The position numbers were made by a program, and so were the translations under genes. The notes below the pieces were generated by a model. That model did no database searches, was not told the origin of the DNA, and saw nothing but the letters and a program-made list of their open reading frames with translations. Shown here piece after piece: positions 2,842 to 16,118 of a stretch of DNA of 18,002 bases. The stretch lies in UHGV virus genome UHGV-0701411; one strand, given 5' to 3'. The stretch is from a virus. The first letter of the stretch is position 1. Each line of letters starts with the position of its first letter.

Positions 2842-5193
2842 ATGCGAAACATTGATCTTATCCGTCAGGTTATCAGTGCGTCTGAAAACAACTGGCCTCA
2901 TGTGCTGGGCTGCCTGAACATAAATGTCCCTGACTCTCCGCGCCGTCATGCTCCCTGCCCTGCATGTGGGGGCAAAGATCGATTCCGGTTCGATGACAAC
3001 GGGCGCGGTAGCTTCATCTGTAATCAGTGCGGCGCTGGTGATGGGCTGGATTTAATTAAACGCGTAAATAACTGCGACACAACAGAGGCGGCGCTTCTTG
3101 CCGCTGATGTTCTGGGTATTGATTACCGGACAACGGAAACACCAGAAGCCACCAGCCAGAAACGGGAACAACTGGAAACCGAGCGCCAGCGACGCGAACA
3201 GGAGCGCCTGAAAAGGGCAGAGAAGGACGAACAACAAAGACGGGATACGTTTTCCCGTCAGTTTGATGACATGCGCAGAAAGGCTGTAAACGGCAAATCT
3301 GATTATCTGGTTGCGAAAGGGGTAGGTGATTTTACATTCCCCGTGTTGCCCGATGGATCTCTGTTGCTGGCGCTGGTGGATAAATCCGGCGCAGTCACAG
3401 CAGCACAGACTATTACCTCACATGGTGAAAAAAGACTCCTGACAGGTTCGGCAAAGCGGGGGGCATATCACGCCATAAACGCACAGAAACGACCTCACAG
3501 CATCATAATTGCTGAGGGGGTGGCTACCGCCCTGTCGTGCCATTTAATTCGCCCTGACGCAATGACAGTGGCAGCAATCGACGCTGGCAACCTGTTGCCA
3601 GTAGCGGAAGTCATGCGCAGAACATATCCACAGGCACAAATCATCATTGCCGCAGATAACGATCACCAGCAAGGAAACTCCGAAAGTGGAGGGATCAACA
3701 CGGGGAAAGATGCCGCAGAGAGGGCCGCTATTTCCGTAGCTGGCTGGGTGTCTCTGCCACCGACTGACTATAAAGCCGACTGGAACGACTATCACCAACA
3801 ACACGGGCTGGCGGCAGCCACAGCAGCATTTAAAGATTCGATGTACCAGCCACGGGGGAAAGGGGCGCAGGTGAAAAATCACAAACAGCCAGTCGGGGCG
3901 CTGAATGAGATCAGTTCTGGCGAGGTGTTAAGCGATGATGAAATTGCTGTCCTCGAAGAAATCAACCGGACGTTTACGCATGTCACCATTGGCGGGAAAC
4001 ACAAGGTGGTGTCGCTAAAGCCTTCTCAAACCGGCGGTGTATCGCACGTTTTCGAGGATTTATCACAATTTCAGCATTATTTTCATCATAAACCGAGAGT
4101 CGCCAGAAAGCTGGCGGGATCGGCGTGGCTGTCATGGAGTGGGAAGAACTACAAGCCAGGAGGCGTAGGATTTTATCCAGTACCAGGCAAATGCCCTGGC
4201 GATGTTTTTAATCTGTATGAGGGGCTGGCACTGGAACCAATTGAAGGAGATTGCACGGTATACCTTAATCACCTGTTGCAGGTTGTCTGTGCCGGTAATG
4301 AAGAGGCATACCAATATCTTATCCAGTGGATGGCGCACATTATCCAAAAGCCTGATGAAAAACCGTCCGTGGCAATCGTGATGAAATCTGTCCCGGGCAC
4401 AGGGAAAGGCACAACGGTTAAACCGCTGCTGCAAATACTGGGGCAGTACGCCGCCCACATTAACGGGGCGGGACATATTTCAGGGCGCTTCAATTCAATA
4501 CTTGCTAACAAGCTACTGGTATTTGCTGACGAAGTGACGATCCACAAGCCGTCTGAAGCTGACAGACTTAAAGCGATTATTAGCGAACCGACGTTTAACC
4601 TTGAGCGCAAGGGAATTGATGCTGAACCAATGCCGAATTTTGCCCGGTTGATATTTGCCAGTAACAGCACACAGGTATTACAGGCAGGGATAAGAGAGCG
4701 CCGCTATCTCGTGCTTGAGCCATCTCCTGAAAAAGCACAGAGCCGGGAGTATTTTGATCGGCTGTACAGTTGGCTTAATGATGGCGGTGCCGCAAAGTTG
4801 CTTTGGCATCTTAAAGGGGTGGATCTCTCAGGTTTTGACCCTCAACGAGCGCCACAGACCGATGCCTTACGTGAAGAAATCTTGCTGGGGCTGTCTGGCG
4901 TTGAATTGTTTCTTTATGGCGAGCTAATCAATGAACCTCCGTTTAATGGCGAAGTCCGTTTGTTTGCAAAGGATATGGTTAGTCGATTTGTAGCGTGGTC
5001 GCTTGAGCGTGGGGAAAAGCTTAAAGAGCCAGCAGCCAGATCACTACTGGGTAAATCACTTGCACAAATGGGGCTGGTGAAGCATGGAAGACCAGACCGA
5101 GGGAATGGCGTGTTCTACGAACTACCAGAGGTCGGAGTTCTACAGGCTGCGTTTGCCCGTCTGATCGGTATGGGGGGTTATGATGTTTTTTAA
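2842..5193 (+). CDS. P4 alpha-type bifunctional DNA primase/helicase (783 aa)
   Basis: N-terminal zinc ribbon CPACGG...CNQCG. Central TOPRIM-like segment (IIIAEGVATALS, AADND). C-terminal P-loop NTPase with Walker A VMKSVPGTGKGT and Walker B LLVFADEV. Architecture matches P4 alpha / D5-like primase-helicases. Confidence 0.93.
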   Translation: MRNIDLIRQVISASENNWPHVLGCLNINVPDSPRRHAPCPACGGKDRFRFDDNGRGSFICNQCGAGDGLDLIKRVNNCDTTEAALLAADVLGIDYRTTETPEATSQKREQLETERQRREQERLKRAEKDEQQRRDTFSRQFDDMRRKAVNGKSDYLVAKGVGDFTFPVLPDGSLLLALVDKSGAVTAAQTITSHGEKRLLTGSAKRGAYHAINAQKRPHSIIIAEGVATALSCHLIRPDAMTVAAIDAGNLLPVAEVMRRTYPQAQIIIAADNDHQQGNSESGGINTGKDAAERAAISVAGWVSLPPTDYKADWNDYHQQHGLAAATAAFKDSMYQPRGKGAQVKNHKQPVGALNEISSGEVLSDDEIAVLEEINRTFTHVTIGGKHKVVSLKPSQTGGVSHVFEDLSQFQHYFHHKPRVARKLAGSAWLSWSGKNYKPGGVGFYPVPGKCPGDVFNLYEGLALEPIEGDCTVYLNHLLQVVCAGNEEAYQYLIQWMAHIIQKPDEKPSVAIVMKSVPGTGKGTTVKPLLQILGQYAAHINGAGHISGRFNSILANKLLVFADEVTIHKPSEADRLKAIISEPTFNLERKGIDAEPMPNFARLIFASNSTQVLQAGIRERRYLVLEPSPEKAQSREYFDRLYSWLNDGGAAKLLWHLKGVDLSGFDPQRAPQTDALREEILLGLSGVELFLYGELINEPPFNGEVRLFAKDMVSRFVAWSLERGEKLKEPAARSLLGKSLAQMGLVKHGRPDRGNGVFYELPEVGVLQAAFARLIGMGGYDVF

Positions 5194-5223
5194 TATAGTC
5201 TTTTTACAAGAAGATCGCTTTTA

Positions 5224-5328
5224 CCTGTACCACCTATACCACTTTGCTAATTCAGTATTAAAAACAGTGCGTTATAGTGGTACAGGTCAATATCTTACCT
5301 ATACCAGACCTGTACCACCTATACCATT
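5224..5328. repeat. Iteron-like repeat cluster A: three copies of CCTGTACCAC(C)TATACC, two direct (5224-5242, 5309-5328) and one inverted (5271-5288)
   Basis: Read directly from sequence. Lies just 3' of the primase stop; candidate primase/replication-protein binding sites (ori/crr-like) or recombination sites. Confidence 0.6.
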
Positions 5329-5369
5329 AACAAACGCATTTCTTCTGGCTGGCTGAGAGGAAACAACCA

Positions 5370-5600
5370 ATGATGAGCACACCATTTTACAAAGTGCGCC
5401 AGTTAGCTTCTTCCTCTGGCTGGCAGCTACGGTTTGAGGGGCGTTCAGACTGGCTACCCATTGCGGCATGGGCGAATGTTGAAATGTGTATTGACGGCGA
5501 TACCGTTGAAATCATTATTCCCTGCGTGGCAAGTCGGGACGGCTGTATAGAGCCAACAGATATGGCAGCAGAAATCAGAGAGGTAAAACATGAACAATAA
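5370..5600 (+). CDS. Hypothetical protein (76 aa)
   Basis: SD AGAGGAAA 6 nt upstream of ATG 5370; overlaps the downstream gene start at 5590. Confidence 0.55.
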   Translation: MMSTPFYKVRQLASSSGWQLRFEGRSDWLPIAAWANVEMCIDGDTVEIIIPCVASRDGCIEPTDMAAEIREVKHEQ

Positions 5601-6327
5601 CTATTGCATACCGCAGGGAATGACCAGAACGGAGCGCGAAGAATTAAAAAGTTTCGCTACACAGTGCGGGAATGCTGGCGACATCCAAAGTCTGGAACGC
5701 ACTTTAATTATGATTGCGCACTGGATGCGCCAGGGGCAAAGAGTTTCATTTACTGAATATGCCAGCCAGTGGACAGAGGCACAGCGCGAACGGAGCGACG
5801 GTAATCACTCAACACCCGAAATGGCGAAGCAATGGCCTTTCAGTGGTAAACGCTGTATCAGTCCCGGTGGTTCAGATTATTACCCTGCTGGTGTGGGAGA
5901 TGAGCCATGTTGTGACGAGACTGAAATCCGCCACGCAGTGACAGTAATTACCGCTGAATACCCACAATTTAACCTTGACGGACTGGCGCTCCACAACCGG
6001 AATGCGGACTGGGAAAACCCGCTTGATAACCCGTCATTTATCGTATCGGCGAAAAGCTGCCTGAGATGGATCAGAGACAACGGGATGAGTAATGCCCAGA
6101 TTGAGAGCTTCCCGCAGGATAACCCCACATCTGACACGTTGAAGCATGAAGTGGAGCGATATAACCAGATAAACCACCAGCACAGTGATCACCCGCACTA
6201 TATCCCCAACGGAGCATTTATTGCGGCGATGGTGGCAAGCGGCTACAAGGTTAAGCCAGCGGGAAGAATGAACGCATTTTTCAATATTTCAAAAAAGGGA
6301 TTATGTGCTGCTATGGGTAAAAATTAA
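5590..6327 (+). CDS. Hypothetical protein (245 aa)
   Basis: ATG 5590 preceded by AGAGG; 11-nt overlap with the upstream ORF; no recognisable domain. Confidence 0.6.
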   Translation: MNNNYCIPQGMTRTEREELKSFATQCGNAGDIQSLERTLIMIAHWMRQGQRVSFTEYASQWTEAQRERSDGNHSTPEMAKQWPFSGKRCISPGGSDYYPAGVGDEPCCDETEIRHAVTVITAEYPQFNLDGLALHNRNADWENPLDNPSFIVSAKSCLRWIRDNGMSNAQIESFPQDNPTSDTLKHEVERYNQINHQHSDHPHYIPNGAFIAAMVASGYKVKPAGRMNAFFNISKKGLCAAMGKN

Positions 6328-6332
6328 ATAAA

Positions 6333-6437
6333 TGGTACAGGTCTGTACAGGTGGGGAGAGGTCATTTTTACCCACCTGTACCACCTGCAGGCCGCGCCAC
6401 ACAAGGGTTTGTGACATGGTGGTACAGGTGGTACAGC
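6333..6437. repeat. Iteron-like repeat cluster B: GGTACAGG / CCTGTACCACCT copies at 6333-6356, 6371-6391 and 6418-6437, partly arranged as an imperfect palindrome
   Basis: Same core motif as cluster A; together the clusters bracket the 5370..6327 module. Confidence 0.6.
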
Positions 6438-6929: not shown

Positions 6930-7103
6930 ATGGCTATTTCAGTAAAGCCAGTATTGATAAGTGAGAAGCAAATGGAAGCGATAAAGAAAATTCAGGAGGA
7001 GCAGCGTAAAAAATCAGAGGTAGGAGTTGCGCCAACGATCCACGAAATTGCTCGGGGATTAATGGATAAGGCGCTGGCTTACACTTTAACTGGACGTGGG
7101 TAA
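6930..7103 (+). CDS. Small protein (57 aa, MAISVKPVLISEKQMEAIKKIQEEQRKKSEVGVAPTIHEIARGLMDKALAYTLTGRG), possible ribbon-helix-helix fold
   Basis: Absent from the ORF track because it is short. SD AAGGGGG 4-5 nt upstream of ATG 6930; stop TAA at 7101-7103, 4 nt before the next start. The strand-helix-helix pattern is inferred from the sequence only. Confidence 0.45.
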   Translation: MAISVKPVLISEKQMEAIKKIQEEQRKKSEVGVAPTIHEIARGLMDKALAYTLTGRG

Positions 7104-7107
7104 ATCA

Positions 7108-8574
7108 ATGGCTACGTGGCAACAGGGTATTAATTCTGGTGGTTTTCTGGCTGGCATTGGTGCGCAAAATGAGAATGCGCCAAAGGCAAGCGACATTAAC
7201 GCAACGCTTGGTATGATCCGCGAAAACAATGAACTGGCTCGATCAGGTGCAAATAACGTTGCTCTGACAGGTCTTCGTGGTCTGGCTGGAGTTGCTGATA
7301 TTTATAAGCAGCAGCAACAGCAGGAGCGTAAAGCGGCATTCCAGAAAGGTTATGCAGATGCTTATGCGTCCGGTGACAGGGAGCAGATGCGTAATCTTAT
7401 TACAGCATTCCCAGAAGAGTTTGAGGAAGTCCGTAAAGGGATGAGTTATGTCGATGATGCTCAAAGGGATGATTATGGCAATCTGGCGCTCAAAGCACAG
7501 GTAGCCTCATCGCTTGGTCAGGGCGCATTTGGCAGGTTCATGATGGATAATGAGCAGGAGATGCGTCGTTTAGGTATCCCTCCAGAAACTATTGCTGAAA
7601 TGCAGGTTAATGACCCGCAGGGCTTCCAGCATTTCGCAGGTAATCTGGCGCTGTTTTCTCTCGGTCATGAGAAGTATTTCGATATCAAAGACCAAATGGA
7701 AGGTCGGGATATTGAGCGTGGCAAGTTGGCAGAGACAATCCGCAGCAATCAGGCTGGCGAAGCACTTCAGGCGAGAGGGCAGGATATTAGCCGAGCAAAT
7801 GCGTTAACGTCAGCATATGCCCCAACAGCAGCAATGCAGAATTACAATCAGTACGCTCAAATGTTAAAGGCGGATCCAGAGGGGGCGGCGGCATTTGCGG
7901 CAGCGGCTGGAATTAATACAAACGCCAAAAAATTAATGAGTGTTAGAGAAAACGATGATGGCACTGTCACAAAATACTACACAGACGGAAGTGAAGAGCA
8001 TGGAAAACTAAACCAGCCAATATCTGGAGATGGGTTTCGTCCAATAGCTTTGCCAACAGCCCAAAAGATCATGGAAAAGTCGCCAGAAGGGGCTAAAAAA
8101 GCTGCTGGATTTGCATACAGAGTTAGGGATGCTCTTGATTCAATGGATACACTGAAAGGCCAGCTTAGCCCACAGCGAGTGGCGATCATTAATAATGCTT
8201 TGGGTAATGGGACGCTGGCTAACTTAACGCTCAGCCCAACAGAGCAGCAATACGTTGTTAATGCTAATGACGCAATAATGGCAATACTCCGTCAGGAAAC
8301 AGGGGCAGCTATCGTACCTGCTGAAATGTCAAAATATTATCAAATGTATTTCCCTCAGCCTGGCGACTCCACAAAAACCATTGATACCAAGCGCCGGAAG
8401 ATGGAAAACCAGTTCAATTCGCTGAAAGCTGCTTCTGGTCGAGCTTATGATGCTTTGCGGGTTATTTCAGCAGTTGACAGAGGGACTTCTTCTTCGTCGC
8501 AGACATTGCCGCAATCTGAGCAGGTATCACAGCCAGCAGCCAGCAGTAATTTTTCTTCACTATGGGGTGATTAA
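7108..8574 (+). CDS. Large hypothetical protein A (488 aa), Ala/Gln/Gly-rich low-complexity, family not recognised
   Basis: Long ORF with start ATG 7108 (track begins at GTG 7096). Stop overlaps the start of protein B (TAATG at 8572-8576). No catalytic motif seen. Confidence 0.8.
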   Translation: MATWQQGINSGGFLAGIGAQNENAPKASDINATLGMIRENNELARSGANNVALTGLRGLAGVADIYKQQQQQERKAAFQKGYADAYASGDREQMRNLITAFPEEFEEVRKGMSYVDDAQRDDYGNLALKAQVASSLGQGAFGRFMMDNEQEMRRLGIPPETIAEMQVNDPQGFQHFAGNLALFSLGHEKYFDIKDQMEGRDIERGKLAETIRSNQAGEALQARGQDISRANALTSAYAPTAAMQNYNQYAQMLKADPEGAAAFAAAAGINTNAKKLMSVRENDDGTVTKYYTDGSEEHGKLNQPISGDGFRPIALPTAQKIMEKSPEGAKKAAGFAYRVRDALDSMDTLKGQLSPQRVAIINNALGNGTLANLTLSPTEQQYVVNANDAIMAILRQETGAAIVPAEMSKYYQMYFPQPGDSTKTIDTKRRKMENQFNSLKAASGRAYDALRVISAVDRGTSSSSQTLPQSEQVSQPAASSNFSSLWGD

Positions 8575-10679
8575 TGGCTAAAGCATGGAAAGATGTTATC
8601 GCCTCTCCACAGTATCAGGCGTTAGCACCAGAACAAAAAGCGCAGGCTCAGGAGCAATACTTCAATGAAGTCGTGGCCCCGCAAGCCGGAGAAAGTGTAG
8701 AGCAGGCTAAGCAGGCTTTTTATGCTGCCTATCCACTACCATCAACGAATGAAATAGACCGATCCCAATCAGCAACTCAAAATATTCAACATACATCATC
8801 TGATAATTCTCTTGCGTCAGGGTATGCAAAGTTAGCTACTCAGCAAAGAGAGGGGCTTGAGCGTTCAGCAGAACAGGGAGCCAGTCTTGGGGCTGCTATG
8901 CGCGATGCTATAACAGGCGAAAGCCGAATGACTCCAGAGATGGAGAGACTGCAAAATGTCGACCTTGCCCCAGAGTTAACCTCACTCAGCATGGATGCTC
9001 TAAAAGCTCGATGGTCTCAACTTTTCGGCTCTGACGCATCTCAGGAAAAGATTCTTCAGAGCATGGGAGCGAAATTAAGGCAGGATGAGAAGGGTAACAC
9101 TATCGTTTCCCTGCCATCCGGTGATTATGCTCTGAACAAGCCGGGTTTATCGCCGCAAGACGTGGCATCGTTTCTGGCTAATGCGCTGGCGTTTACACCA
9201 GCGGGCAGGGCTGGAACGGTGCTTGGTGCCATAGGAAAATCAGCAGCTACAGATTTAGCACTACAGGGAGCCACCAGCCTTGCTGGTGGAGAAGATATTG
9301 ATCCGTTACAAACGGTAATTTCTGCTGGCATTGGTGGTATTGGTAAGGGGCTGGAAAATACAGCGAGTGCGGTTTCGAGGGCTGTTCGTGGTGATATGTC
9401 GCCTGAAGCAAAGGCTGCTGTCAACTTTGCATCGGAAAGAAATCTGCCGTTAATGACCAGTGACATGCTGAAAGATAAAACCTTTATGCAGAGTCAGGCT
9501 CAGACATTAGGCGAAAGAGTTCCTTTTTTTGGAACCGGTAAGAATCGGCTGAATCAACAACAAGCACGAGAAAATTTAGTCAGAACATTTAGCGATGGTC
9601 TGGGTGGCATTTCTGATAAACAGCTTTATGAATCTGCGACTAAAGGGCAACAAAAATTCATTGAGGCAGCAGGAAAGCGATATAACCGCATAATTGACGC
9701 TATGGGGGATACCCCTGTCGATCTCTCAAACACGGTAAAAGCTATCGACAATCAGATTGCCGTGTTAAGCCGCCCTGGCAAATCTCAGGATAGAGCCGCG
9801 GTAAAAGTCTTGCAGCAATTTAAAGACGATATCACCAGCGGACCAAATGACCTGCGTCTGGCGAGGGAAAACAGAACCGATCTTCGAAAGCGATTTATGG
9901 CGTCATCTGACACTGTTGATAAAGATACGCTCCAGAAAGCCAGCGATATTATCTACAAGGCATATACGGCGGATATGAAAAAAGCCGTAGCCAAAAATCT
10001 TGGAGCAGACGAAGCCATTAATATGGCAAGGGTTGATCGCTCATGGTCTAAATTCAATGACATGATGGGAAGAACGCGCGTTCAAAAGGCAATAGCCAGC
10101 GGCAAGGCCACGCCTGAGGATGTAACAAAACTCGTTTTTAGCCAAAGCCCATCAGAACGTTCTCAGCTTTACAGGCTTCTGGATGACAATGGTAGGCAAA
10201 ACGCACGAGCAGCCATAGTTCAGAATGCTGTAGATAAGGCGACTGATCCGTCTGGAAATATCAGTGTTGAGAAGTTTATTAATGCGTTACACCGGAACAG
10301 GAAGCAATCAGCAACTTTCTTTAAAGGCGTACATGGAAAGGAACTGGACGGCGTTATTAAATACCTCAACGATACAAGACACGCGGCAAAAGCGAACGTT
10401 CAAAACTTAAATGGTCAGCAGCTTTATGGATTGTTAGTTGGTGGTGGCATCATAAACGCAGCAGTATTAGCGGGGATGCTAAAAACGGCTGCGTTTGTTG
10501 TTCCTGCTGCTGGTGCCGTAGGCGGAGCAGCGAAGGCATACGAAAGCCCTGTTATTCGAAATGCCTTGTTACGTCTGGCAAATACGCCAAAAGGTAGCAC
10601 AGCATATGACAGAGCGATCAGTACGGTCACACAATCACTGACCACAGCAGCACAAGCATCGCAAAAGGAAGCTCAATAA
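8574..10679 (+). CDS. Large hypothetical protein B (701 aa), Ala/Gln-rich with a C-proximal Gly/Ala-rich hydrophobic segment
   Basis: ATG 8574 is translationally coupled to A. Hydrophobic stretch LYGLLVGGGIINAAVLAGMLKTAAFVVPAAGAVGGAAKAY encoded at about 10424-10546. No enzymatic motif seen. Confidence 0.85.
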   Translation: MAKAWKDVIASPQYQALAPEQKAQAQEQYFNEVVAPQAGESVEQAKQAFYAAYPLPSTNEIDRSQSATQNIQHTSSDNSLASGYAKLATQQREGLERSAEQGASLGAAMRDAITGESRMTPEMERLQNVDLAPELTSLSMDALKARWSQLFGSDASQEKILQSMGAKLRQDEKGNTIVSLPSGDYALNKPGLSPQDVASFLANALAFTPAGRAGTVLGAIGKSAATDLALQGATSLAGGEDIDPLQTVISAGIGGIGKGLENTASAVSRAVRGDMSPEAKAAVNFASERNLPLMTSDMLKDKTFMQSQAQTLGERVPFFGTGKNRLNQQQARENLVRTFSDGLGGISDKQLYESATKGQQKFIEAAGKRYNRIIDAMGDTPVDLSNTVKAIDNQIAVLSRPGKSQDRAAVKVLQQFKDDITSGPNDLRLARENRTDLRKRFMASSDTVDKDTLQKASDIIYKAYTADMKKAVAKNLGADEAINMARVDRSWSKFNDMMGRTRVQKAIASGKATPEDVTKLVFSQSPSERSQLYRLLDDNGRQNARAAIVQNAVDKATDPSGNISVEKFINALHRNRKQSATFFKGVHGKELDGVIKYLNDTRHAAKANVQNLNGQQLYGLLVGGGIINAAVLAGMLKTAAFVVPAAGAVGGAAKAYESPVIRNALLRLANTPKGSTAYDRAISTVTQSLTTAAQASQKEAQ

Positions 10680-10740
10680 CAGATGACCATGGATGGTTGG
10701 TTATAATAGTAATTAGTATTTTTTCAAATAGTTATGAACA

Positions 10741-11139
10741 TTAACACTTGCCTTTAACATTGCCGACAAATGAGCCTGTAAATGAGCCTATATCAGATCG
10801 ACTAATTGTTCGTGTATGGATCACTTTTCCGTCATTTGAGATTGCCCATGTGACAAGCGTCAGTTGACCATCTCGATAGCTTCTTCCCATCATGGCATTC
10901 GGAGATAGCGGGTAATAATCAATACCTCCACCTATACCATCTTTTGCCAAGATAAGATCCGCCTTCTCTTTACTTATTACCAAATGAAATGTATCTGGTA
11001 TAGATGATAACTTATAGTTATACCCATCTGAACTTGAGGCTTCTTGTCCTTTCAGATCACCAATAATCCAGCATTCAGCGTTCGCTCCAAAAGAAGCAAA
11101 TAATAAACCGGAGACAACCAATCGCTTCAATTGATTCAC
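10741..11139 (-). CDS. Small secreted/periplasmic protein (132 aa) with Sec signal peptide MNQLKRLVVSGLLFASFGANA
   Basis: GTG start at 11139 preceded by SD GGGAGG with a 6-nt spacer on the minus strand; hydrophobic h-region and ANA-E cleavage-like site. The gene is AT-rich (about 41% GC). The track ORF extends to 11208 but that start lacks an RBS. Confidence 0.6.
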   Translation of the reverse strand: MNQLKRLVVSGLLFASFGANAECWIIGDLKGQEASSSDGYNYKLSSIPDTFHLVISKEKADLILAKDGIGGGIDYYPLSPNAMMGRSYRDGQLTLVTWAISNDGKVIHTRTISRSDIGSFTGSFVGNVKGKC

Positions 11140-11254
11140 ACCAACCCTCCCTTTAGCGTTGTTTAGAATGGCAATCATCATATATCCAAGACATGGCATT
11201 TGGTACATAGCTTGGGTCGGGATTTCAAATCCGATCCCCGTTGATGGGGCCGTT

Positions 11255-11410
11255 ACAGTACGCGCATATCCGCTTTATGTGAAACAGGAAGATTTTTCTG
11301 ATATCACTGCCACAGCAAAACACCAATTTCGTGACCAGTACGCGCGCGAGGGGTATCAGTTGCAAAAAGTTTTGCAACTACGTCCGACCAGTACGCGCAC
11401 GATGGAGGGG
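11255..11410. repeat. Three copies of the motif (A/C)CAGTACGCGC(G/A) at 11255-11266, 11333-11353 and 11386-11410, plus a 9-bp-arm palindrome GTTGCAAAAAGTTTTGCAAC at 11359-11378
   Basis: Read directly; they lie in the 520-bp intergenic region upstream of the secreted-protein gene. Confidence 0.65.
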
Positions 11411-11618
11411 AGTACCATAAAACTGCTCTCTACATAAGTCAGAGTGGTGGTGATGTGTTGATTATCGGCGTATATGCGCACAGGACGCGCTATGACGATG
11501 TTTTATGCGGGTACACTAATCACATGTATCTGGTGTGATAAATCGCGTTACATGACCTCTCATGTTGTGCTGGTGGTTATCACGACTTTCTGAATCTGGC
11601 CTTTGCCTGATATTTTGC

Positions 11619-11644
11619 GACAAGTACGCGCGCGTAGCATCGAC
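11619..11644. repeat. GACAAGTACGCGCGCGTAGCA repeat containing the perfect 12-bp palindrome TACGCGCGCGTA (11625-11636)
   Basis: Self-complementary alternating CG core; a near-identical copy lies at 12912-12936. Confidence 0.65.
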
Positions 11645-11662
11645 AGCATACACATTGGATAT

Positions 11663-11884
11663 TCATTTTGTGACCAATGCGATAAGTAGCGGGATAAGAA
11701 TTGATAAAATCAACAGGCCGATGAGCCATTTTTGATTCTCACTGGCTTTGTCTCTATTTTCATCCATCTTATCAATAATTCGACGCTCCATTCCGTGCAT
11801 ATCACCGCGAATGGCAATCATCTCATTGCGAACATCCGAGAAGTGGTTGGCTTGATGTTCAATGTGTGGCGTTCTGCCTTTCAT
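11663..11884 (-). CDS. Small C-terminally anchored membrane protein (73 aa; charged N-terminal helix + TM segment WLIGLLILSILIPLLIALV)
   Basis: ATG 11884 with SD-like GAGGA upstream on the minus strand. The architecture resembles XhlA/holin-like tail-anchored proteins; this is inferred from the sequence, not a database hit. Confidence 0.5.
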   Translation of the reverse strand: MKGRTPHIEHQANHFSDVRNEMIAIRGDMHGMERRIIDKMDENRDKASENQKWLIGLLILSILIPLLIALVTK

Positions 11885-11963
11885 TCCTGATCCTCACCTA
11901 TCGTCACCACCTGCTGGTGTATAAAGGTATTGGCCCAAGCAGCTTTCCAATGGGCACTCATGT

Positions 11964-12419
11964 TTATACGCTGACCTTACAATCAATCACCGCTTTTAAC
12001 TTTTCAGCATTGCTTCCCTGACGCTTCCACGCGCTGTAAATATCTTTATCCCACGCTTTACCAGCTTTTGTTTGATAGCCTGCTTCATTGATCCGTTCAG
12101 CTATCACACGCCCATTATCAAATCCCTGTTGGATGGTATCGGCAATGATCTTTATAACTGCCGTTTCGTTATATGGTTTTGGTGGGATGTTCGGCTTTCC
12201 GGCAATAAGCGACGCAGCGGCTTTTTCCATGCGCTCCACCAGCCCAAGCATTCGTGAATCAATAGACTTTTCCGGCTGCCCCAGCTTCATGCGAATCGCA
12301 TCAACAAGCCAGGAGGTTTTATCTCCTCCAGAAGCGAGAACAGACCGATTAAACTCATCCTGCAATTCAGATGGGATGCGGAACGCGATCAGATTAGATT
12401 TGCTCATTGCAAAGACCAT
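11964..12419 (-). CDS. Ribbon-helix-helix (CopG/Arc-like) DNA-binding regulator with ~100-aa C-terminal extension (start 12419 or 12407)
   Basis: N-terminus SKSNLIAFRIPSELQDEFNRSVLASGGDKTSWLVDAIRMKL has the classic strand-helix-helix pattern. No SD before either ATG, so the mRNA may be leaderless. Divergent from the PerC-like gene, with palindromes in its promoter region. Confidence 0.7.
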   Translation of the reverse strand: MVFAMSKSNLIAFRIPSELQDEFNRSVLASGGDKTSWLVDAIRMKLGQPEKSIDSRMLGLVERMEKAAASLIAGKPNIPPKPYNETAVIKIIADTIQQGFDNGRVIAERINEAGYQTKAGKAWDKDIYSAWKRQGSNAEKLKAVIDCKVSV

Positions 12420-12436
12420 ATCAGTGAGTAATATCC

Positions 12437-12468
12437 ATACAGTATACCACTGTATAACACTGTTATAC
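12437..12468. promoter_or_regulatory. Two overlapping palindromes (ATACAGT-N5-ACTGTAT at 12437-12455; GTATAACA-C-TGTTATAC at 12452-12468), candidate operators
   Basis: Perfect inverted repeats immediately upstream of the RHH regulator start, inside the divergent RHH / PerC-like promoter region. Confidence 0.5.
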
Positions 12469-12571
12469 GCTCAAATATCAGCCAGAAAATAACGGACCAA
12501 TCACAAAGCTATCGCTGTGTTGTTGGTTCAGAGCTGGGCTGTGTTGGTTCAAAATAATCTGAGAGGCAGAA

Positions 12572-12853
12572 ATGATAAGGGACAGGAAAGCTGAAGAGCT
12601 GGAGTCAAAAGGGCTATACCGGAGAGCTGCCGCACGATGGATGGAAGTCATGCTGTTATGCACCGAGGACGATGATCGGGAATGGATAAAGCGCCGCCGT
12701 GAAACGTGTCTGGAGAACGTGAAGCGCCCGCCCGTGAAGGTTGAGGACTTTGGCGACCTGCATAAAGCTGTTACCGAAACGCAACACCGCATGGGGATAG
12801 CGCAACCGAACGGTAACGCCTTCCGGTTAAATGGCGGCAAGAGGCAAAGGTAG
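12572..12853 (+). CDS. PerC-family-like transcriptional regulator (93 aa, MIRDRKAEELESKGLYRRAAARWMEV...)
   Basis: SD GAGAGG 5 nt upstream of ATG 12572. The N-terminal AEELE-KGL-RRAA-RW pattern resembles PerC-type prophage activators; the family call is from memory. Confidence 0.55.
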   Translation: MIRDRKAEELESKGLYRRAAARWMEVMLLCTEDDDREWIKRRRETCLENVKRPPVKVEDFGDLHKAVTETQHRMGIAQPNGNAFRLNGGKRQR

Positions 12854-12857
12854 ACCA

Positions 12858-12902
12858 CCAGAGGGAAATCATCCTCTGGCTGGCGGTTTCTGGTATTTCG
12901 GG
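12858..12902 (+). terminator. Hairpin CCAGAGG-N8-CCTCTGG followed by a T-rich tract; possible terminator of the PerC-like gene
   Basis: 7-bp perfect stem 5 nt after the stop codon; downstream tract GGTTTCTGGTATTTCG is only moderately U-rich. Confidence 0.4.
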
Positions 12903-12911
12903 ACAAGTACG

Positions 12912-12936
12912 CGCGCGCGTAGCACCCAATCGGTGA
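12912..12936. repeat. GACAAGTACGCGCGCGCGTAGCACC repeat (14-bp palindrome TACGCGCGCGCGTA at 12918-12931)
   Basis: Fifth copy of the GTACGCGC motif family; near-identical to 11619-11644. Confidence 0.65.
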
Positions 12937-13150
12937 GGAAATAGCGGCGACCTGAATGGTCAAAATCACAACGCAGCTATCCCCGTAAGCAGCGCTTAAC
13001 GGAATAGCAGTAACCTGAATCCAGTGGGGAGGGGGTAGTCAAATCTCTACAGCCCTGACTATCCGGGACTGCCAGCCCCATCGTTTTTTTATACCCGCGA
13101 AAAATGAAATTTAATCCGGGCGTGTTTCATCCTTCCAGAGGGTATGACGT

Positions 13151-13336
13151 ATGACACCACGCGAAATAGCCTTATTGACCATCGCCAAACTTGAGCACGG
13201 AGGCCACCAGCTTACACAGGCAGATCAACGGGAGATAGAACGATCAGTTAATGCCGATATAGCCCGGCGCGACAGGTTCCGCGAAATGATGCGAGCACCT
13301 GCCTACCAGTGGAAGAAGCCAGCGCCGCGCAGGTAG
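13151..13336 (+). CDS. Hypothetical small protein (61 aa)
   Basis: SD AGAGGG 6 nt upstream of ATG 13151; basic C-terminus. Confidence 0.45.
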   Translation: MTPREIALLTIAKLEHGGHQLTQADQREIERSVNADIARRDRFREMMRAPAYQWKKPAPRR

Positions 13337-13456
13337 ATATGGGATTATTCCACATGTAACTTATGCGTATTAAGCAAATTTCCTTTATTCACCTTTACAG
13401 AATTGTGAGTACGTCAGTATCGTTATCCTTCCGATTCGCATTTATTCAGGATTTGC

Positions 13457-13999
13457 ATGTACCAGCTAAAGATAACCATCCGAGACAGCAAACCACCTAT
13501 ATGGCGGCGTGTGCTGGTTCCAGAGCAAATCCCCTTTAGTAAACTTCATGCCGTGATCCAGTTAGCTTTTGGCTGGCATGACGAACACCTGTATATGTTC
13601 GAGAAAGGGCGTAAAGGTGATCCAGGTAGCGAGTATCACGTATGGGGTGAGGATGAAAGCATGGGTAACGCGGCAATCACGCCACTATGGGCGGCGCTCC
13701 AGAATGAGGGTGACAAGCTGGTTTACACGTATGACTTTGGCGACTGGTGGGATTGCGTCATTGTGCTGGAGAAGCAAACACACGATACGAGTAATCAGCC
13801 CATTAGCTGCCTGCGTGGGAAAGGCACCACCCCGGCGGAAAACTCAGGCGGCTTGCATGGTTACAATGAATTGCTATTACAGGCCAGAGAGTCTGATAAT
13901 CCTGAGCAGGCCGAGATCCACAATTTCCTGATGCTGGATATTGAACGCCGGGTTTACGACCTGAGCCGCATCAACGACAGATTGCAGGCTATTAACTGA
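13457..13999 (+). CDS. Plasmid pRiA4b ORF-3-like (MM3350-like) family protein (180 aa)
   Basis: Hallmark motifs YQLKITIRDSKPPIWRRVLVP ... LHAVIQLAFGWHDEHLYMF ... YTYDFGDWWDCVIVLE match the conserved signature of this family as I recall it. Confidence 0.8.
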   Translation: MYQLKITIRDSKPPIWRRVLVPEQIPFSKLHAVIQLAFGWHDEHLYMFEKGRKGDPGSEYHVWGEDESMGNAAITPLWAALQNEGDKLVYTYDFGDWWDCVIVLEKQTHDTSNQPISCLRGKGTTPAENSGGLHGYNELLLQARESDNPEQAEIHNFLMLDIERRVYDLSRINDRLQAIN

Positions 14000-14351
14000 C
14001 CCGCATGTATTCACCTGATATTGCGTTATCAGCGCCGCCAGTATCGCGCATAACAGCACAATGACCGGGTAAACCGTAACGCACGACCGTTGCGTTAGTC
14101 TCACCGCCGCGCCGTATCTGGCGCGATTCATACACTGTCACCCGCTCAAGCAGTCCACCAGCAACCATGCTTTCCAGTGTGCGCCGGGTTGATTCGAGCT
14201 GGTGACGCTTATCGAACGACACCATGCCATGAAGCAGGTAGGCCACACCCGACACATCGAACGGCGGCGCACCAATCTCACCAGTCACCCATTCGAGGTT
14301 ATCCGGCTCAAAATAACTGAGTATCTCTTTTTTACGGCTGGTCATTCTCAT
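13992..14351 (-). CDS. Hypothetical protein (119 aa), possibly a winged-helix DNA-binding protein
   Basis: Convergent with the pRiA4b ORF-3-like gene (8-nt overlap); SD-like AAGGAA upstream of ATG 14351 on the minus strand. Confidence 0.55.
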   Translation of the reverse strand: MRMTSRKKEILSYFEPDNLEWVTGEIGAPPFDVSGVAYLLHGMVSFDKRHQLESTRRTLESMVAGGLLERVTVYESRQIRRGGETNATVVRYGLPGHCAVMRDTGGADNAISGEYMRVS

Positions 14352-14471
14352 GGCTGGCTGATTCCTTATTGTGGGATAGCGGTATCATACAATAAGGCGC
14401 AAAAGATAAGAGGCCAGAACAGCAAGCACAAGAGCATAAAATGAGCAACCAAAGGCAGCACCTCAAAATAC

Positions 14472-14738
14472 CGTGTACACAAGGGTGTACCTACTGAGAA
14501 AACGCATTACAAGAAACACAGCAACCACGGGAGTTTAAAGCCACTACTCAATAAACAGATCCAGAATATCGAATAAGCTATCAGCAAAAATCACCAAGCA
14601 GCAAAAAACCATAAAGCCCGCGAAATGTCGGGCTTTTTTGTTATCATGAGCTATCATAACGACGCAACAAAGCGCATGATTATGGTGTACACAAAGGTGT
14701 ACCCAATGAGGTTTGGGTACATTGCTTTGGGTACACCC
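14472..14738. repeat. Repeat family GTGTACACAA(A/G)GGTGTACC (14472-14492, 14684-14704) and GGGTACATTGCTTTGGGTACACCC (14715-14738) upstream of the integrase; candidate Int arm-type (attL) sites
   Basis: Near-identical 20-mers about 210 bp apart, directly 5' of the integrase start; related copies at 6555-6575, 11192-11207 and 11505-11515. Confidence 0.55.
14613..14640 (+). terminator. Rho-independent terminator (AAAGCCCG-loop-CGGGCTTT then TTTTTTG)
   Basis: Perfect 8-bp stem with 8-nt loop and a T-run; A-run on the 5' side makes it potentially bidirectional. Sits between the att-like repeats and the integrase start. Confidence 0.7.
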
Positions 14739-14765
14739 CCTATTCAAAGTTTGGATATTCGCAAA

Positions 14766-16025
14766 ATGCCAAAACTAACAGACATGCAGATCCGCGCATG
14801 GATTAAGAGCGGAGAGCGATTCGAGGGGCGGGCAGACGGTAACGGTTTATACCTACGTTACCGTGAAGCCGACAAAACCCCCACATGGAGATTCCGCTAT
14901 AAACTCGCAGGGAAGTCCCGCGCCATGCTAATTGGTTCGTATAGCGAGATATCACTATCAAAGGCCAGAGAGACAGCCAAAGAGCTGTCAGCCAGAGTTG
15001 CTCTTGGCTATGACGTAGCAGCAGAGAAACAGGAACGAAAAGCTGAAGCACTGGCAAAAATGGAGGCTGAGAAAAACGCCATGCGTGTTTCAGATCTGGC
15101 CTCCGAATACTTCGAGCGCCAGATACTTCCGAGATGGAAACATCCCGATATCCTTCGCCGGAGAATTGATAAGGATATTAACCCCTGCATTGGGCATATG
15201 AAGGTAGAGGACGTTAAGCCACGCCACATTGACGACATGTTGAAAGGTATCGTTGACCGAGGAGCACCAACGATAGCAACAGATGTATTACGCTGGACAC
15301 GCCGTATCTTTGACTACGGGATAAAACGCCACGCTCTGGAGATAAACCCTTGTTCAGCGTTTGAAGTATCTGATGCTGGTGGTAAAGAGGTTTCCCGCGA
15401 CCGTTGGCTAACTCGCGATGAGCTTATCAGGCTATTCGAGGCTATGCGCACCGCAAAAGGATTCAGCCGCCAGAACGAACTGACATTTAAGCTATTGCTG
15501 GCACTATGCGTTCGTAAGATGGAGTTATGCGCCGCACGATGGGAAGAGTTTGATTTAGATGGTGCGGTATGGCATTTGCCGGAAGAACGCAGCAAAAACG
15601 GAGACCCTATTGATATACCTCTACCTTCTCCAGCCGTTGAATGGTTGAGAGAACTACACACCTTTTCATGTAATAGCGCATGGGTGCTTCCAGCCAGGAA
15701 GATGCAAAACAGAATGATCCCACATATTCAGGAAAGCACTTTGCCCGTAGCACTGGCTAAGGTTCGCGCCGAAATGCCGGATGTGCCTAATTTCACGATT
15801 CACGACTTCCGACGCACCGCACGTACTCATTTAGCAGCGTTGGGCGTTGATCCGGTAGTCGCAGAAAGATGCCTTAATCACAAAATTAAAGGTGTGGAGG
15901 GTATCTATAACCGTCACCAGTATTTTGATGAGCGTAAAGCGGCGCTGGCGCAGTGGTGTGATTTGCTGGTGGCACTGGAGCGCGGCGAAGAATACAACGT
16001 GACGCCTATCAGAAAGGCAAAGTAA
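14766..16025 (+). CDS. Tyrosine site-specific integrase, P4/CP4-57 type (419 aa; alternative starts 14706 or 14625)
   Basis: N-terminus MPKLTDMQIRAWIK...GLYLRY...WRFRYK matches the P4-type Int N-terminal pattern. C-terminal catalytic signature HDFRRTARTHL ... Y. The track ORF begins at 14625 but overlaps the terminator hairpin, so a downstream start is preferred. Confidence 0.93.
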   Translation: MPKLTDMQIRAWIKSGERFEGRADGNGLYLRYREADKTPTWRFRYKLAGKSRAMLIGSYSEISLSKARETAKELSARVALGYDVAAEKQERKAEALAKMEAEKNAMRVSDLASEYFERQILPRWKHPDILRRRIDKDINPCIGHMKVEDVKPRHIDDMLKGIVDRGAPTIATDVLRWTRRIFDYGIKRHALEINPCSAFEVSDAGGKEVSRDRWLTRDELIRLFEAMRTAKGFSRQNELTFKLLLALCVRKMELCAARWEEFDLDGAVWHLPEERSKNGDPIDIPLPSPAVEWLRELHTFSCNSAWVLPARKMQNRMIPHIQESTLPVALAKVRAEMPDVPNFTIHDFRRTARTHLAALGVDPVVAERCLNHKIKGVEGIYNRHQYFDERKAALAQWCDLLVALERGEEYNVTPIRKAK

Positions 16026-16118
16026 CCGAACAGACCGGAACTAGCCCGACGGGGCGAAAAGCGGAAAGCCTTACCGCCTGTTCCGGTCACTCTTTAAGGC
16101 AGCGCGAAAGGTTACGCT

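What the first reader, a model, noticed from the sequence alone, without database searches (positions are those of the whole stretch)
11663..12853. Divergent regulatory switch: RHH regulator (possibly leaderless) with palindromic operators, facing a PerC-like activator, with a small membrane protein downstream
The RHH gene has no SD and two overlapping perfect palindromes directly upstream (12437-12468); the PerC-like gene diverges from the same region. A 73-aa tail-anchored membrane protein follows the RHH gene on the same strand after a 79-nt gap. This resembles a repressor/activator immunity switch or a regulator plus membrane toxin/holin pair.
Basis: partly seen in the sequence, partly recalled or inferred. 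Interest (0 to 1): 0.45.

Follow-up and report, generated by a model that had tools for sequence, protein, structure and literature searches.

The report
Autoregulated RHH regulator in a phage satellite
This stretch is the right-hand accessory region of a known kind of E. coli phage satellite (an EcCIMP1-type island), where an uncharacterised two-domain DNA-binding protein most likely represses its own promoter through a conserved palindrome; it is probably not a two-way switch with the neighbouring PerC gene, and probably not a toxin pair with the small membrane protein.

Summary
The three ORFs, the 79-nt gap, the two overlapping palindromes and the PerC domain are all at the stated coordinates.

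- **Setting.** The window is an EcCIMP1-family PICI, a satellite of P22-like phages (PMC11773190).
- **The 147-aa protein** (true start 12407) has a predicted Arc/Mnt-like RHH N-terminus, a linker helix and a divergent recombinase-type winged-HTH C-terminus. The family is spread across Enterobacterales satellites, has no Pfam family and is absent from 50,697 phage records.
- **Operator.** The 17-bp palindrome 12452-12468 is conserved. In 43 intact homologous loci an operator sits at -62 to -45, directly before an extended -10 in most of them. Two operator types pair without exception with two RHH beta-strand variants.
- **Leader.** This predicts a leader of about 28 nt, so the mRNA is not leaderless.
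- **Second palindrome.** It is the operator arm plus the -10 box.
- **PerC.** Adjacency is E. coli-specific. EcCIMP1 itself has perC without the RHH gene. The DNA between the two genes is a decayed second copy of the satellite's iteron/AT-rich ori-like array, missing 107 bp.
- **The 73-aa protein.** It is a sporadic, weakly XhlA-like passenger. Its homologues sit in the Mnt operon of P22-like prophages. It is absent from all 49 other-genus loci and frameshifted in one E. coli strain.

Ordinary mechanism, uncharacterised family.

The parts
11964..12407 (-). Gene for the 147-aa RHH + linker helix + recombinase-like wHTH protein. Conserved start MSKSN at 12407; an in-frame ATG at 12419 would give 151 aa.
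12452..12468 (.). Operator: 17-bp perfect palindrome GTATAAC-N3-GTTATAC, spanning roughly -33 to -17 of the predicted RHH promoter.
   Evidence: Conserved in 21 distinct type-A upstream sequences from E. coli to Providencia, with a variable central triplet and unconserved flanks. Single occurrence in the window at up to 3 mismatches.
12441..12449 (-). Predicted extended -10 (TGGTATACT on the minus strand) of the RHH promoter. Predicted TSS near 12434.
   Evidence: TGnTAnnnT found 35-43 nt upstream of the ATG in most loci. The second palindrome is confined to the E. coli/Klebsiella/Pluralibacter/Serratia clade. L002 has a 10-bp shorter variant. The TSS is inferred, not measured.
11663..11884 (-). 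73-aa tail-anchored membrane protein (m73), weakly XhlA-like. A passenger gene of P22-immI type, possibly co-transcribed with the RHH gene.
   Evidence: phrog_6324 E=8e-13; holin phrog_689 E=0.004. XhlA PF10779 sub-threshold in 11/19 family members, best 23.6 bits against a cutoff of 34.7. 56% identical to a 111-aa protein in the Mnt operon of P22-like prophages. Frameshifted in CP53.
11885..11963 (-). 79-nt spacer between the RHH gene and m73. Contains the m73 SD (GAGGA at 11891-11895).
   Evidence: Sequence read directly. No promoter-like or terminator-like site found.
12514..12554 (+). Remnant of an iteron/AT-rich ori-like array. Two TGTTGGTTCA iterons (12521-12530, 12542-12551) remain. The 107-bp deletion junction lies at 12554/12555.
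   Evidence: In CP53, L002 and EcCIMP1 the full array (3 iterons, AT-rich spacer, 3 inverted tandem iterons) occurs twice: after the DUF927 primase and before perC. The layout matches the Gram-negative PICI ori description in PMC6092414.
12572..12853 (+). PerC-family gene, 92/93 identical to EcCIMP1_025. SD GAGAGG at 12561-12566.
   Evidence: PF06069 E=1.7e-30. NCBIfam ANR 31.4 bits against a cutoff of 32. Identity to the MP1 copy. EcCIMP1_025 repressed LEE1-lux in C. rodentium (PMC11773190).
10741..11208 (-). 155-aa ORF with a signal-peptide-like N-terminus (phrog_2651). The last gene on the minus strand, convergent with the gp16-like gene.
   Evidence: RefSeq annotates the CP53 homologue as hypothetical.
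11214..11643 (+). Conserved ORF-poor block carrying three copies of the motif GACMAGTACGCGCGCG. A fourth copy lies at 12902-12921, after perC.
   Evidence: 95.6% identical in EcCIMP1. The motif occurs 4 times against 0.06 expected. No Rfam match. Function unknown.

Best explanation
The region is the right-arm accessory and regulatory part of an EcCIMP1-family phage-inducible chromosomal island, a satellite of P22-like phages.

**The 147-aa protein.** It is an uncharacterised two-domain DNA-binding protein. It has an Arc/Mnt-like ribbon-helix-helix N-terminus, a central helix that probably mediates oligomerisation, and a divergent recombinase-type winged-HTH C-terminus.

**Proposed mechanism.** Two RHH dimers bind the two 7-bp half-sites of the 17-bp palindrome, which are spaced 10 bp centre to centre. 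The palindrome fills the space between the -35 position and an extended -10. Binding would occlude RNA polymerase and repress the gene's own transcription.

**Downstream genes.** In this island the same transcript probably reads on into the 73-aa membrane-protein gene, and perhaps into the 155-aa gene. These are passengers of the kind found in the Mnt-led immI operon of P22-like prophages.

**perC.** It is a separate module. Its constant upstream partner is the iteron array, not the RHH gene. In this window that array is a 107-bp-deleted relic, left after the primase/ori module was exchanged.

**Status of each step.**
- Shown: gene content, operator conservation, promoter position, module distribution.
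- Inferred: DNA binding, repression, co-transcription.
For: - Island identity: DNA homology to EcCIMP1/MP1 and CP53 at the thrW site; paper PMC11773190.
- Operator: conserved at -62 to -45 in 43 intact loci, followed by TGnTAnnnT in most.
- Co-variation: 23/23 type-A palindromes go with an xL(I/V)AF(R/H) strand (22 of 23 have the conserved Arg). 20/20 type-B direct repeats (TGTCTTAC x2, 10-bp spacing) go with (L/I)SVTFR.
- The two types are intermixed on a tree of residues 46-130, so operator and strand travel as a cassette.
- The operator is unique in the window.
- C-terminal domain.
- m73 homologue in the Mnt operon next to gp16/gp20 in P22-like prophages.
- No terminator or promoter in the 79-nt gap.
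- perC plus iteron array is present without the RHH gene in EcCIMP1.
Against: - No RHH Pfam model reaches threshold. RHH_1 hits 1 of 30 members at E=0.074.
- Foldseek E-values are above 1. hhalign probabilities are about 1%.
- The operator and the beta-strand codons are under 100 bp apart. Their co-variation could therefore reflect linkage rather than recognition.
- The simple sigma-70 scan found no promoter, because there is no -35 match. The promoter call rests on the conserved extended -10.
- There is no experimental transcript, binding or expression data for this gene. EcCIMP1, the only studied relative, lacks it.
- The role of the almost invariant C-terminal wHTH is unexplained by simple autorepression.
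Confidence: 0.6

Rival explanations
1. Replication or copy-number regulator. The RHH-wHTH protein acts at the satellite's iteron arrays, like CopG or ParG/omega-type RHH proteins. It would use the RHH on its own operator and the C-terminal wHTH on iterons or a nearby motif, coupling its expression to origin function.
For: - A complete TGAACCAAC/GTTGGTTCA array lies directly upstream (-191 to -76) of the RHH promoter in 13 loci from several genera, and within 700 bp in 3 more.
- In E. coli the gene abuts the second copy of the array.
- The protein has a second DNA-binding-type domain that is nearly invariant, as are the iterons.
- P4 has two alpha-binding regions, ori and crr (established knowledge; mentioned in PMC6092414).
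Against: - About two thirds of the loci have no such iterons near the gene.
- The C-terminal domain is unchanged in islands with a different primase and different iterons, including this window (ACCTRTACCA).
- The array next to the gene is deleted here while the gene stays intact.
- EcCIMP1 is mobilised without this gene (PMC11773190).
Confidence: 0.15
2. A bistable divergent switch in which the RHH repressor and the PerC-like activator oppose each other from a shared control region and decide the satellite's state.
For: - The genes are divergent and 164 nt apart, with palindromes between them.
- The arrangement is found in 351 of 5,426 complete E. coli genomes.
- Both products are predicted regulators.
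Against: - The palindrome belongs to the RHH promoter only.
- The rest of the spacer is an ori-like iteron array, about 107 bp longer in relatives.
- PerC is not the neighbour in any of the 49 other-genus loci.
- EcCIMP1 has perC with no RHH gene and is still inducible and transducible, with alpA as master regulator.
- C4/isrK immunity-type RNAs lie 11 kb away.
- No sigma-70 promoter was detected towards perC.
Confidence: 0.08
3. Regulator plus membrane toxin/holin, or an abortive-infection or superinfection-exclusion cassette. The RHH protein keeps the 73-aa membrane protein silent until helper-phage infection, when the protein permeabilises or modifies the membrane.
For: - Same strand, no terminator, and its own strong SD.
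- Weak XhlA and holin-PHROG similarity.
- Homologues lie in the lysogen-expressed Mnt operon region of P22-like prophages, where P22 carries sieA (the sieA location is from established knowledge of P22).
- EcCIMP1-type islands add to superinfection immunity by an unknown gene (PMC11773190).
Against: - The pair is not co-conserved: 0/49 loci outside E. coli, and about half of the E. coli islands.
- EcCIMP1, which shows the immunity phenotype, lacks m73.
- The gene is frameshifted in CP53 and length-variable.
- All XhlA scores are below the Pfam cutoff.
- No PADLOC hit.
- No endolysin partner was seen among the ORFs scanned.
Confidence: 0.12

Closest known systems
Phage P22 immI region: Mnt and Arc ribbon-helix-helix repressors
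   Same: - A small N-terminal beta-strand/two-helix DNA-binding domain followed by a helical oligomerisation segment, as in Mnt.
- An operator of two subsites overlapping the gene's own promoter.
- The gene lies next to, and convergent with, the ejection-protein genes (gp20/gp16 homologues).
- It is followed by small passenger ORFs. The m73 homologue sits in an Mnt-led operon in P22-like prophages.
   Different: - No detectable sequence homology to Mnt or Arc (blastp gave nothing; hhalign E about 0.04-0.07).
- It carries an extra recombinase-type wHTH domain.
- There is no arc/ant partner, and the operator is not shared with an antirepressor promoter.
- It is absent from all 50,697 deposited phage records.
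EcCIMP1 PICI of E. coli MP1 (Pick, Stadel and Raivio, ISME J 2025; PMC11773190)
   Same: - Same island family: AlpA region, antirepressor, Ash/isrK/C4, primase N-terminus, the p57 gene, and PerC-p61-pRiA4b-p119 at 92-99% DNA identity.
- PerC is 92/93 identical.
- Both carry ejection-protein-like genes.
   Different: - Between the conserved block 11214-11643 and perC, EcCIMP1 has alpA_1 (Xis-like) and a p61 paralogue instead of m73 and the RHH gene.
- Different integrase (29% identity), different primase C-terminus, and different iterons.
CopG/RepA-type and omega/ParG-type plasmid RHH autorepressors
   Same: An RHH dimer-of-dimers on repeated subsites at a spacing of about one helical turn. The subsites are in inverted (type A) or direct (type B) orientation, overlap the promoter, and lie beside a replication-origin-like iteron array.
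   Different: - No rep or par gene lies downstream in the operon.
- The protein is about three times larger, with a second DNA-binding-type domain.
- The element is an integrative satellite, not a plasmid.
SaPI Stl/Str divergent master-repressor module
   Same: A satellite-encoded regulator with an N-terminal DNA-binding domain and a C-terminal domain of unknown partner, beside a divergent regulator gene.
   Different: - It is not next to int/alpA.
- The Gram-negative PICI cycle is driven by AlpA.
- The gene is dispensable, in the sense that EcCIMP1 lacks it yet is inducible.
XhlA (PF10779), the membrane protein of the PBSX-type lysis cassette
   Same: About 70-110 aa, an N-terminal coiled-coil-like segment and a single C-terminal transmembrane helix. 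Sub-threshold Pfam matches in 11/19 family members.
   Different: - Scores are 13-24 bits against a cutoff of 34.7. The window copy itself gives no hit.
- No holin or endolysin partner is present.
- It is located in an immI-like region, not a lysis cassette.

Membership tests
Ribbon-helix-helix (Arc/MetJ/CopG) DNA-binding proteins | N-terminal beta-strand followed by two helices (beta-alpha-alpha) that dimerises to form a two-stranded sheet | tested here: inconclusive
Ribbon-helix-helix (Arc/MetJ/CopG) DNA-binding proteins | Significant match to an RHH sequence family model | tested here: not met
   No Pfam hit at E<=0.1 for the window protein. RHH_1 hits 1 of 30 members at E=0.074. No PDB sequence hit at E<=10. 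hhalign to Mnt/Arc gives E 0.04-0.07, in the expected register.
Ribbon-helix-helix (Arc/MetJ/CopG) DNA-binding proteins | Operator of repeated subsites overlapping the regulated (own) promoter, recognised by beta-strand residues | tested here: met
   Tested in silico only. The operator is conserved at -62 to -45 in 43 loci and is followed by an extended -10 in most of them. There are two operator types, each always paired with one strand variant. Binding itself is not testable with these tools.
PerC family (PF06069) | Match to the Pfam PerC model above the gathering score | tested here: met
   105.6 bits against a cutoff of 22.6, E=1.7e-30, covering residues 1-85.
PerC family (PF06069) | Transcriptional activation of LEE1/ler | not testable with these tools
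   The 92/93-identical EcCIMP1_025 silenced LEE1-lux in C. rodentium, while EPEC perC activated it (PMC11773190). ANR-family NCBIfam score is 31.4 against a cutoff of 32.
Leaderless mRNA | Transcription start at, or within a few nt of, the start codon, so the -10 element lies about 7-12 nt upstream of the ATG | tested here: not met
   The conserved extended -10 lies 35-43 nt upstream of the conserved ATG in most loci. This predicts a leader of about 28 nt. No experimental TSS is available.
Type II toxin-antitoxin pair (RHH antitoxin plus downstream toxin) | Toxin gene immediately downstream or overlapping, and co-conserved with the antitoxin | tested here: not met
   79-nt gap. No m73 homologue and no conserved same-strand downstream ORF in 49 loci from other genera. 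Present in about 167 against 351 E. coli genomes. Frameshifted in CP53.
Holin / XhlA lysis-associated membrane proteins | Family model match above threshold, and linkage to an endolysin | tested here: not met
   XhlA best score is 23.6 bits against a cutoff of 34.7, and the window copy gives no hit. Holin phrog_689 E=0.0037. No endolysin was found among the ORFs scanned.
EcCIMP1-type PICI (Gram-negative phage-inducible chromosomal island) | int, alpA region, primase-helicase with adjacent iteron/AT-rich ori, about 10-20 kb, no capsid or terminase genes, homology to a proven member | tested here: met
   Homology blocks to EcCIMP1. Integrase, primase, int-alpA RNA and iterons are present. Helper-dependent excision and transfer are not testable here. 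They were shown for EcCIMP1 only.
[quoted passage not shown] | Two opposed iteron sets around an AT-rich spacer, upstream of perC | tested here: not met
   Met in CP53, L002 and EcCIMP1, with 3+3 GTTGGTTCA. In the window only 2 iterons remain after a 107-bp deletion. The window's functional candidates are ACCTRTACCA arrays at 5223-5326 and 6333-6436.
Recombinase-domain winged HTH (PF07508 / PF20552 HTH_62) | Match of the C-terminal 75 residues to these models | tested here: inconclusive
   Sub-threshold matches in 25/30 members (HTH_62, best E=0.013) and 13/30 (Recombinase, best E=0.032). A profile of the domain finds proteins that score well above the cutoff for these families, including a Resolvase+Recombinase protein.

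The most novel reading that the evidence does not exclude
The RHH-wHTH protein could be a satellite-specific regulator with a second job beyond autorepression. Its exchangeable operator/beta-strand cassette would set identity, or 'immunity', between co-resident satellites. Its invariant recombinase-like wHTH would bind a conserved cis element (the ori-like iteron array or the GACAAGTACGCGCGCG motif) or a helper-phage protein. Either would link satellite replication or packaging to helper infection. That would make it a missing Stl-like or Cnr-like control layer in Gram-negative PICIs.
Probability: 0.12. Interest if true: 0.6.

Novelty: new member of a known kind. Interest (0 to 1): 0.3.

Why it matters
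The mechanism is textbook: an RHH repressor sitting on its own promoter. The island family was described in 2025.

Three things are of modest value.
1. **An unannotated protein family.** It has about 365 hits at 90% clustering, no Pfam family, and is labelled 'hypothetical' in RefSeq. It is specific to Enterobacterales phage satellites and now has a defined start, domain architecture, promoter and operator.
2. **A ready specificity experiment.** There are two natural operator/beta-strand specificity classes. A clean RHH recognition experiment would swap L6/A8 for S6/T8.
3. **A clearer map of the perC region.** In EcCIMP1-type islands perC sits behind a second, inverted copy of the ori-like iteron array. 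The m73 and ejection-protein genes resemble, in gene type and order, the immI end of P22-like phages. This helps in reading these islands, which are present in about 6-12% of complete E. coli genomes. It also cautions against calling the region an immunity switch or a toxin-antitoxin pair.

Tried and rejected
- **Phage DNA similarity.** Megablast of 10700-13400 against 50,697 phage records gave no match. tblastn of the RHH protein gave none. tblastn of m73 gave one weak Klebsiella phage hit.
- **Family scans.** Pfam, NCBIfam and PADLOC gave nothing for the RHH protein or m73 at normal thresholds.
- **PDB sequence search.** A profile of the family gave 0 hits at E<=10.
- **Rfam.** At E<=1 on 11150-13200 there was nothing. 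The repeated GACMAGTACGCGCGCG motif therefore stays unexplained.
- **Promoter/terminator scans.** Sigma-70 and terminator scans of 10500-13200 found nothing useful. The promoter was found only by comparative alignment.
- **Operator scan of viral contigs.** It returned 120+ stretches that look like chance matches for a 14-specified-base pattern. I did not pursue it.
- **Cross-regulation of the helper phage.** There is no operator-like site (up to 2 mismatches) and no RHH, m73 or p155 homologue in helper phage Kapi1 or in the P22-like prophage fragments. Cross-regulation is therefore not supported.
- **EcCIMP1 att core.** TCCTATTATC is absent from the window. This island uses another integrase and att site.
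- **m73 versus Kapi1_061.** hhalign of m73 to the XhlA-motif ORF Kapi1_061 showed no relation.
- **Iterons as the functional ori here.** I considered that the perC-proximal iterons were this island's working origin. I rejected it because the window's primase has a different C-terminus with its own iterons, and because the array is deleted.
- **Co-variation as independent proof of recognition.** I tempered this. The operator and the strand codons are physically linked, even though the two types are intermixed on the C-terminal tree.
Full report
**1. What is in the sequence**

The finding's coordinates hold three ORFs:
- a 73-aa ORF on the minus strand (11663-11884);
- a 151-aa ORF on the minus strand (11964-12419);
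- a 93-aa ORF on the plus strand (12572-12853).

The two inverted repeats are real. One is GTATAACA-c-TGTTATAC at 12452-12468. The other is ATACAGT-5-ACTGTAT at 12437-12455. The 93-aa protein is a clear PerC-family member (PF06069, E=1.7e-30). The 73-aa protein ends in one hydrophobic helix and has a good SD. The gap to the upstream gene is 79 nt.

Two corrections apply. First, thirty homologues fix the start of the middle gene at the ATG at 12407 (MSKSN...), giving 147 aa. Second, perfect palindromes of this size are not rare in this window, with 7 observed against 1.9 expected. The palindrome needed outside evidence.

**2. Where it comes from**

- The DNA has no match in 50,697 phage records. 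It matches 676 E. coli records in 674 genomes.
- In strain CP53 the homologous island lies beside tRNA-Thr, between proA and the pao/yagU genes.
- This is the site and gene set of EcCIMP1, a phage-inducible chromosomal island mobilised by the P22-like phage Kapi1 (PMC11773190).
- The window shares 92-99% identical blocks with EcCIMP1.
- Its PerC protein differs from EcCIMP1_025 by one residue. In that paper EcCIMP1_025 silenced LEE1 expression, whereas EPEC PerC activated it. 'Activator' is therefore a family label, not a finding.
- The window also carries isrK and C4 RNAs at 883-1110 and an int-alpA RNA at 16034-16100. These are the usual immunity/induction-side elements of P4-like and PICI elements, and they lie far from the finding.

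**3. The middle protein**

- It has no Pfam, NCBIfam or PADLOC match. It has no homologue in any deposited phage.
- It has 365 relatives at 60-99% identity across Enterobacterales, all unnamed. One is labelled 'Arc-like DNA binding domain protein'.
- An AlphaFold2 model (pLDDT 76) shows four parts: an extended N-terminus, helices 13-26 and 30-42, a long helix 49-68, and a confident four-helix C-terminal domain.
- Foldseek's best PDB matches are almost all ribbon-helix-helix proteins (TacA, VapB, Arc, CopG, NikA, MazE6-N). None is significant.
- hhalign aligns FRxP-helix in register with a P22-like prophage's Mnt and Arc, at E about 0.04-0.07.
- The C-terminal 75 residues give sub-threshold HTH_62 and Recombinase matches in 25 and 13 of 30 members.
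- A profile of that domain, searched against 1.84 billion representatives, reaches proteins that are bona fide Recombinase/HTH_62 proteins, including a serine recombinase.

I therefore read the protein as RHH + helix + recombinase-type winged HTH. The RHH call is probable, not proven.

**4. The palindromes are a conserved operator plus a promoter**

I fetched 49 loci encoding relatives, one genome per species, and lined up the DNA before each start codon.

Every one of the 43 intact loci has an operator-like element at -62 to -45. In most it is followed within 2-3 nt by an extended -10 (TGnTAnnnT) at -43 to -35. The flanks are unrelated between genera.

There are two operator types:

| Type | Operator | Found in | Distinct sequences |
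|---|---|---|---|
| A | Palindrome GTATAAC-N3-GTTATAC, central triplet free to vary | E. coli, Klebsiella, Serratia, Photorhabdus, Morganella, Providencia, Proteus | 21 |
| B | Two (once three) direct repeats TGTCTTAC, 10 bp apart | Pantoea, Erwinia, Tatumella, Rosenbergiella, Mixta, Cedecea | 21 |

Type A always goes with the N-terminal strand xL(I/V)AF(R/H) (23/23; in 22 of them the last residue is the conserved Arg). Type B always goes with (L/I)SVTFR (20/20). By alignment with Arc (from my knowledge of the Arc-operator structure), the changed residues, positions 6 and 8, are the ones that would face the bases.

On a tree of residues 46-130 the two types are intermixed. For example, two Buttiauxella species differ in type. 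Operator and strand therefore move as a cassette. Because they are under 100 bp apart, this is suggestive of recognition rather than proof.

Three consequences follow:
- The operator fills the -35/spacer region of the gene's own promoter. This is the classic geometry for autorepression.
- The predicted transcription start is near 12434, giving a leader of about 28 nt. The mRNA is not leaderless, although the E. coli SD is indeed poor.
It is confined to the E. coli/Klebsiella/Serratia clade. A 12-kb circular relative, L002, has a 10-bp shorter version.

The operator occurs only once in the window at up to 3 mismatches. It does not occur in helper phage Kapi1.

**5. PerC is not the partner**

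- In the other genera the neighbours of the RHH gene are homologues of the window's p61, p57 and p119 ORFs and of the primase. PerC is rare and never divergent-adjacent.
- EcCIMP1 keeps perC but replaces the RHH gene and m73 with alpA_1 and a p61 paralogue.
- What perC always has upstream is an array of three TGTTGGTTCA repeats at about 21-bp spacing, an AT-rich stretch, and three inverted tandem repeats.
- In CP53, L002 and EcCIMP1 the same array occurs a second time, inverted, immediately after the DUF927 primase gene.
[quoted passage not shown] The pair of arrays recalls P4 ori/crr.
- In this window the primase shares only its first kilobase with EcCIMP1's. It has a DUF5906 C-terminus and its own iterons (ACCTRTACCA) at 5223-5326 and 6333-6436.
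- The perC-proximal array has lost 107 bp, leaving two iterons at 12521-12551.
- The twelve best-matching complete genomes all carry about 97-108 bp more at this junction.

So the 'shared control region' is really an RHH promoter/operator next to a relic origin-like array.

The same array abuts the RHH promoter in 13 loci of other genera, and lies within 700 bp in 3 more. This keeps a replication-related role as a minority hypothesis. However, the protein's C-terminus does not change with iteron type.

**6. The 73-aa protein**

- Its family is small and mostly from E. coli (35 hits).
- It matches phrog_6324 (unknown function, E=8e-13) and weakly a holin PHROG.
- Eleven of 19 members give sub-threshold XhlA matches, at most 23.6 bits against a cutoff of 34.7.
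- A 111-aa homologue (56% identity) lies in P22-like prophages. The gene order there is Mnt (Arc family) - 121 aa - homologue - 107 aa, convergent on gp16/gp20/gp7.
- The window shows the same geometry. A gp20-like gene (7096-8574) and a gp16-position gene (8574-10679) on the plus strand meet the 155-aa, m73 and RHH genes on the minus strand.
- m73 is therefore best seen as a passenger of the phage immI type, sitting behind an RHH-led promoter.
- It is not a conserved partner. It is absent from all 49 other-genus loci. It is present in about 167 E. coli genomes, against 351 with the RHH-perC junction. It is missing from L002 and EcCIMP1. It is frameshifted in CP53.
- No promoter or terminator was detected in the 79-nt gap. 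Co-transcription with the RHH gene is therefore plausible but unproven.

**7. Verdict**

- Best explanation (confidence about 0.6): an autorepressed RHH-wHTH regulator of an EcCIMP1-family satellite, with m73 as a possibly co-transcribed passenger, and perC as an independent module behind a decayed origin-like array.
- Rivals: a replication-linked regulator (0.15), a regulator plus membrane effector (0.12), and a divergent RHH/PerC switch (0.08).
- The mechanism is conventional and the island family is published. The protein family, its operator code and the duplicated origin-like array are undescribed details.
- Novelty: new member of a known kind. Interest: 0.3.

Noticed in passing
window 14200-14800 and both window ends: The window looks like the excised circular (or concatemeric) form of an ~18.3-kb island. 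The right-end gene p119 (13992-14351) is joined to an integrase gene (14625-16025) at about 14566-14577. None of 615 matching complete E. coli genomes has this junction contiguous. The window's two ends map 270 bp apart on a 12-kb circular 'plasmid' relative (NZ_CP148430).
   Followed up: partly
window 2842-6436: Replicon swap relative to EcCIMP1. The primase shares only its first ~1 kb, has a DUF5906 rather than a DUF927 C-terminus, and is followed by two clusters of its own iterons (ACCTRTACCA) at 5223-5326 and 6333-6436. These flank a 76-aa ORF and a 245-aa ORF.
   Followed up: partly
L001 9670-9780 and 15812-15932; L002 6540-6650 and 8436-8556; L007 9853-9973 and 18393-18513: EcCIMP1-type islands carry two inverted copies of a complete iteron/AT-rich ori-like array (GTTGGTTCA, 3+3). 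One follows the primase gene and one precedes perC. This is reminiscent of P4 ori/crr, and I found no description of it in the papers read.
   Followed up: partly
window 11333-11352, 11386-11405, 11619-11638, 12902-12921: Four same-strand copies of GACMAGTACGCGCGCG (0.06 expected). Three lie in a 430-bp ORF-poor block that is conserved in EcCIMP1, and the homology breaks exactly after the third copy. The same motif occurs near the RHH gene in Serratia fonticola (L011 5775-5876). There is no Rfam match and the function is unknown.
   Followed up: partly
window 7096-10679: The satellite encodes homologues of P22-type ejection proteins. One is gp20-like (PF16928; N-terminus 53-57% identical to Kapi1 and prophage gp20). 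The other is a 701-aa DNA-transfer/transglycosylase-type protein (phrog_770). These are virion proteins brought by a satellite.
   Followed up: no
window 883-1110: isrK (883-960) and C4 antisense RNA (1023-1110) lie inside the 355-aa ORF that RefSeq-type annotation calls an 'ash family protein' (502-1569). This suggests P4-like RNA immunity, and possibly an over-called ORF.
   Followed up: no
L001 14875-15174 (E. coli CP53): The m73 homologue carries a 5-bp deletion. The resulting frameshift removes the transmembrane helix, yet the gene is annotated as a 99-aa hypothetical protein.
   Followed up: yes
L017 5700-7900 (Pantoea coffeiphila): Tandem duplication of the whole unit: iteron array, operator, RHH gene, p61 (RHH copies start at 6001 and 7252).
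   Followed up: no
L002 8340-8400: A 10-bp deletion in the RHH promoter of the 12-kb circular relative places the -10 box inside the operator's right arm.
   Followed up: partly
L177 32628-33804 (phage Kapi1): The helper phage's immI region also has small signal-peptide or membrane ORFs, including one annotated with an XhlA motif (Kapi1_061), between the gp16-like gene and an Arc-family (Mnt-position) gene. None is homologous to m73 or to the 155-aa ORF.
   Followed up: yes
window 11359-11378: A perfect 9-bp-arm hairpin (GTTGCAAAA-ag-TTTTGCAAC) lies between two copies of the GACMAGTACGCGCGCG motif. It is not followed by a T-run.
   Followed up: no
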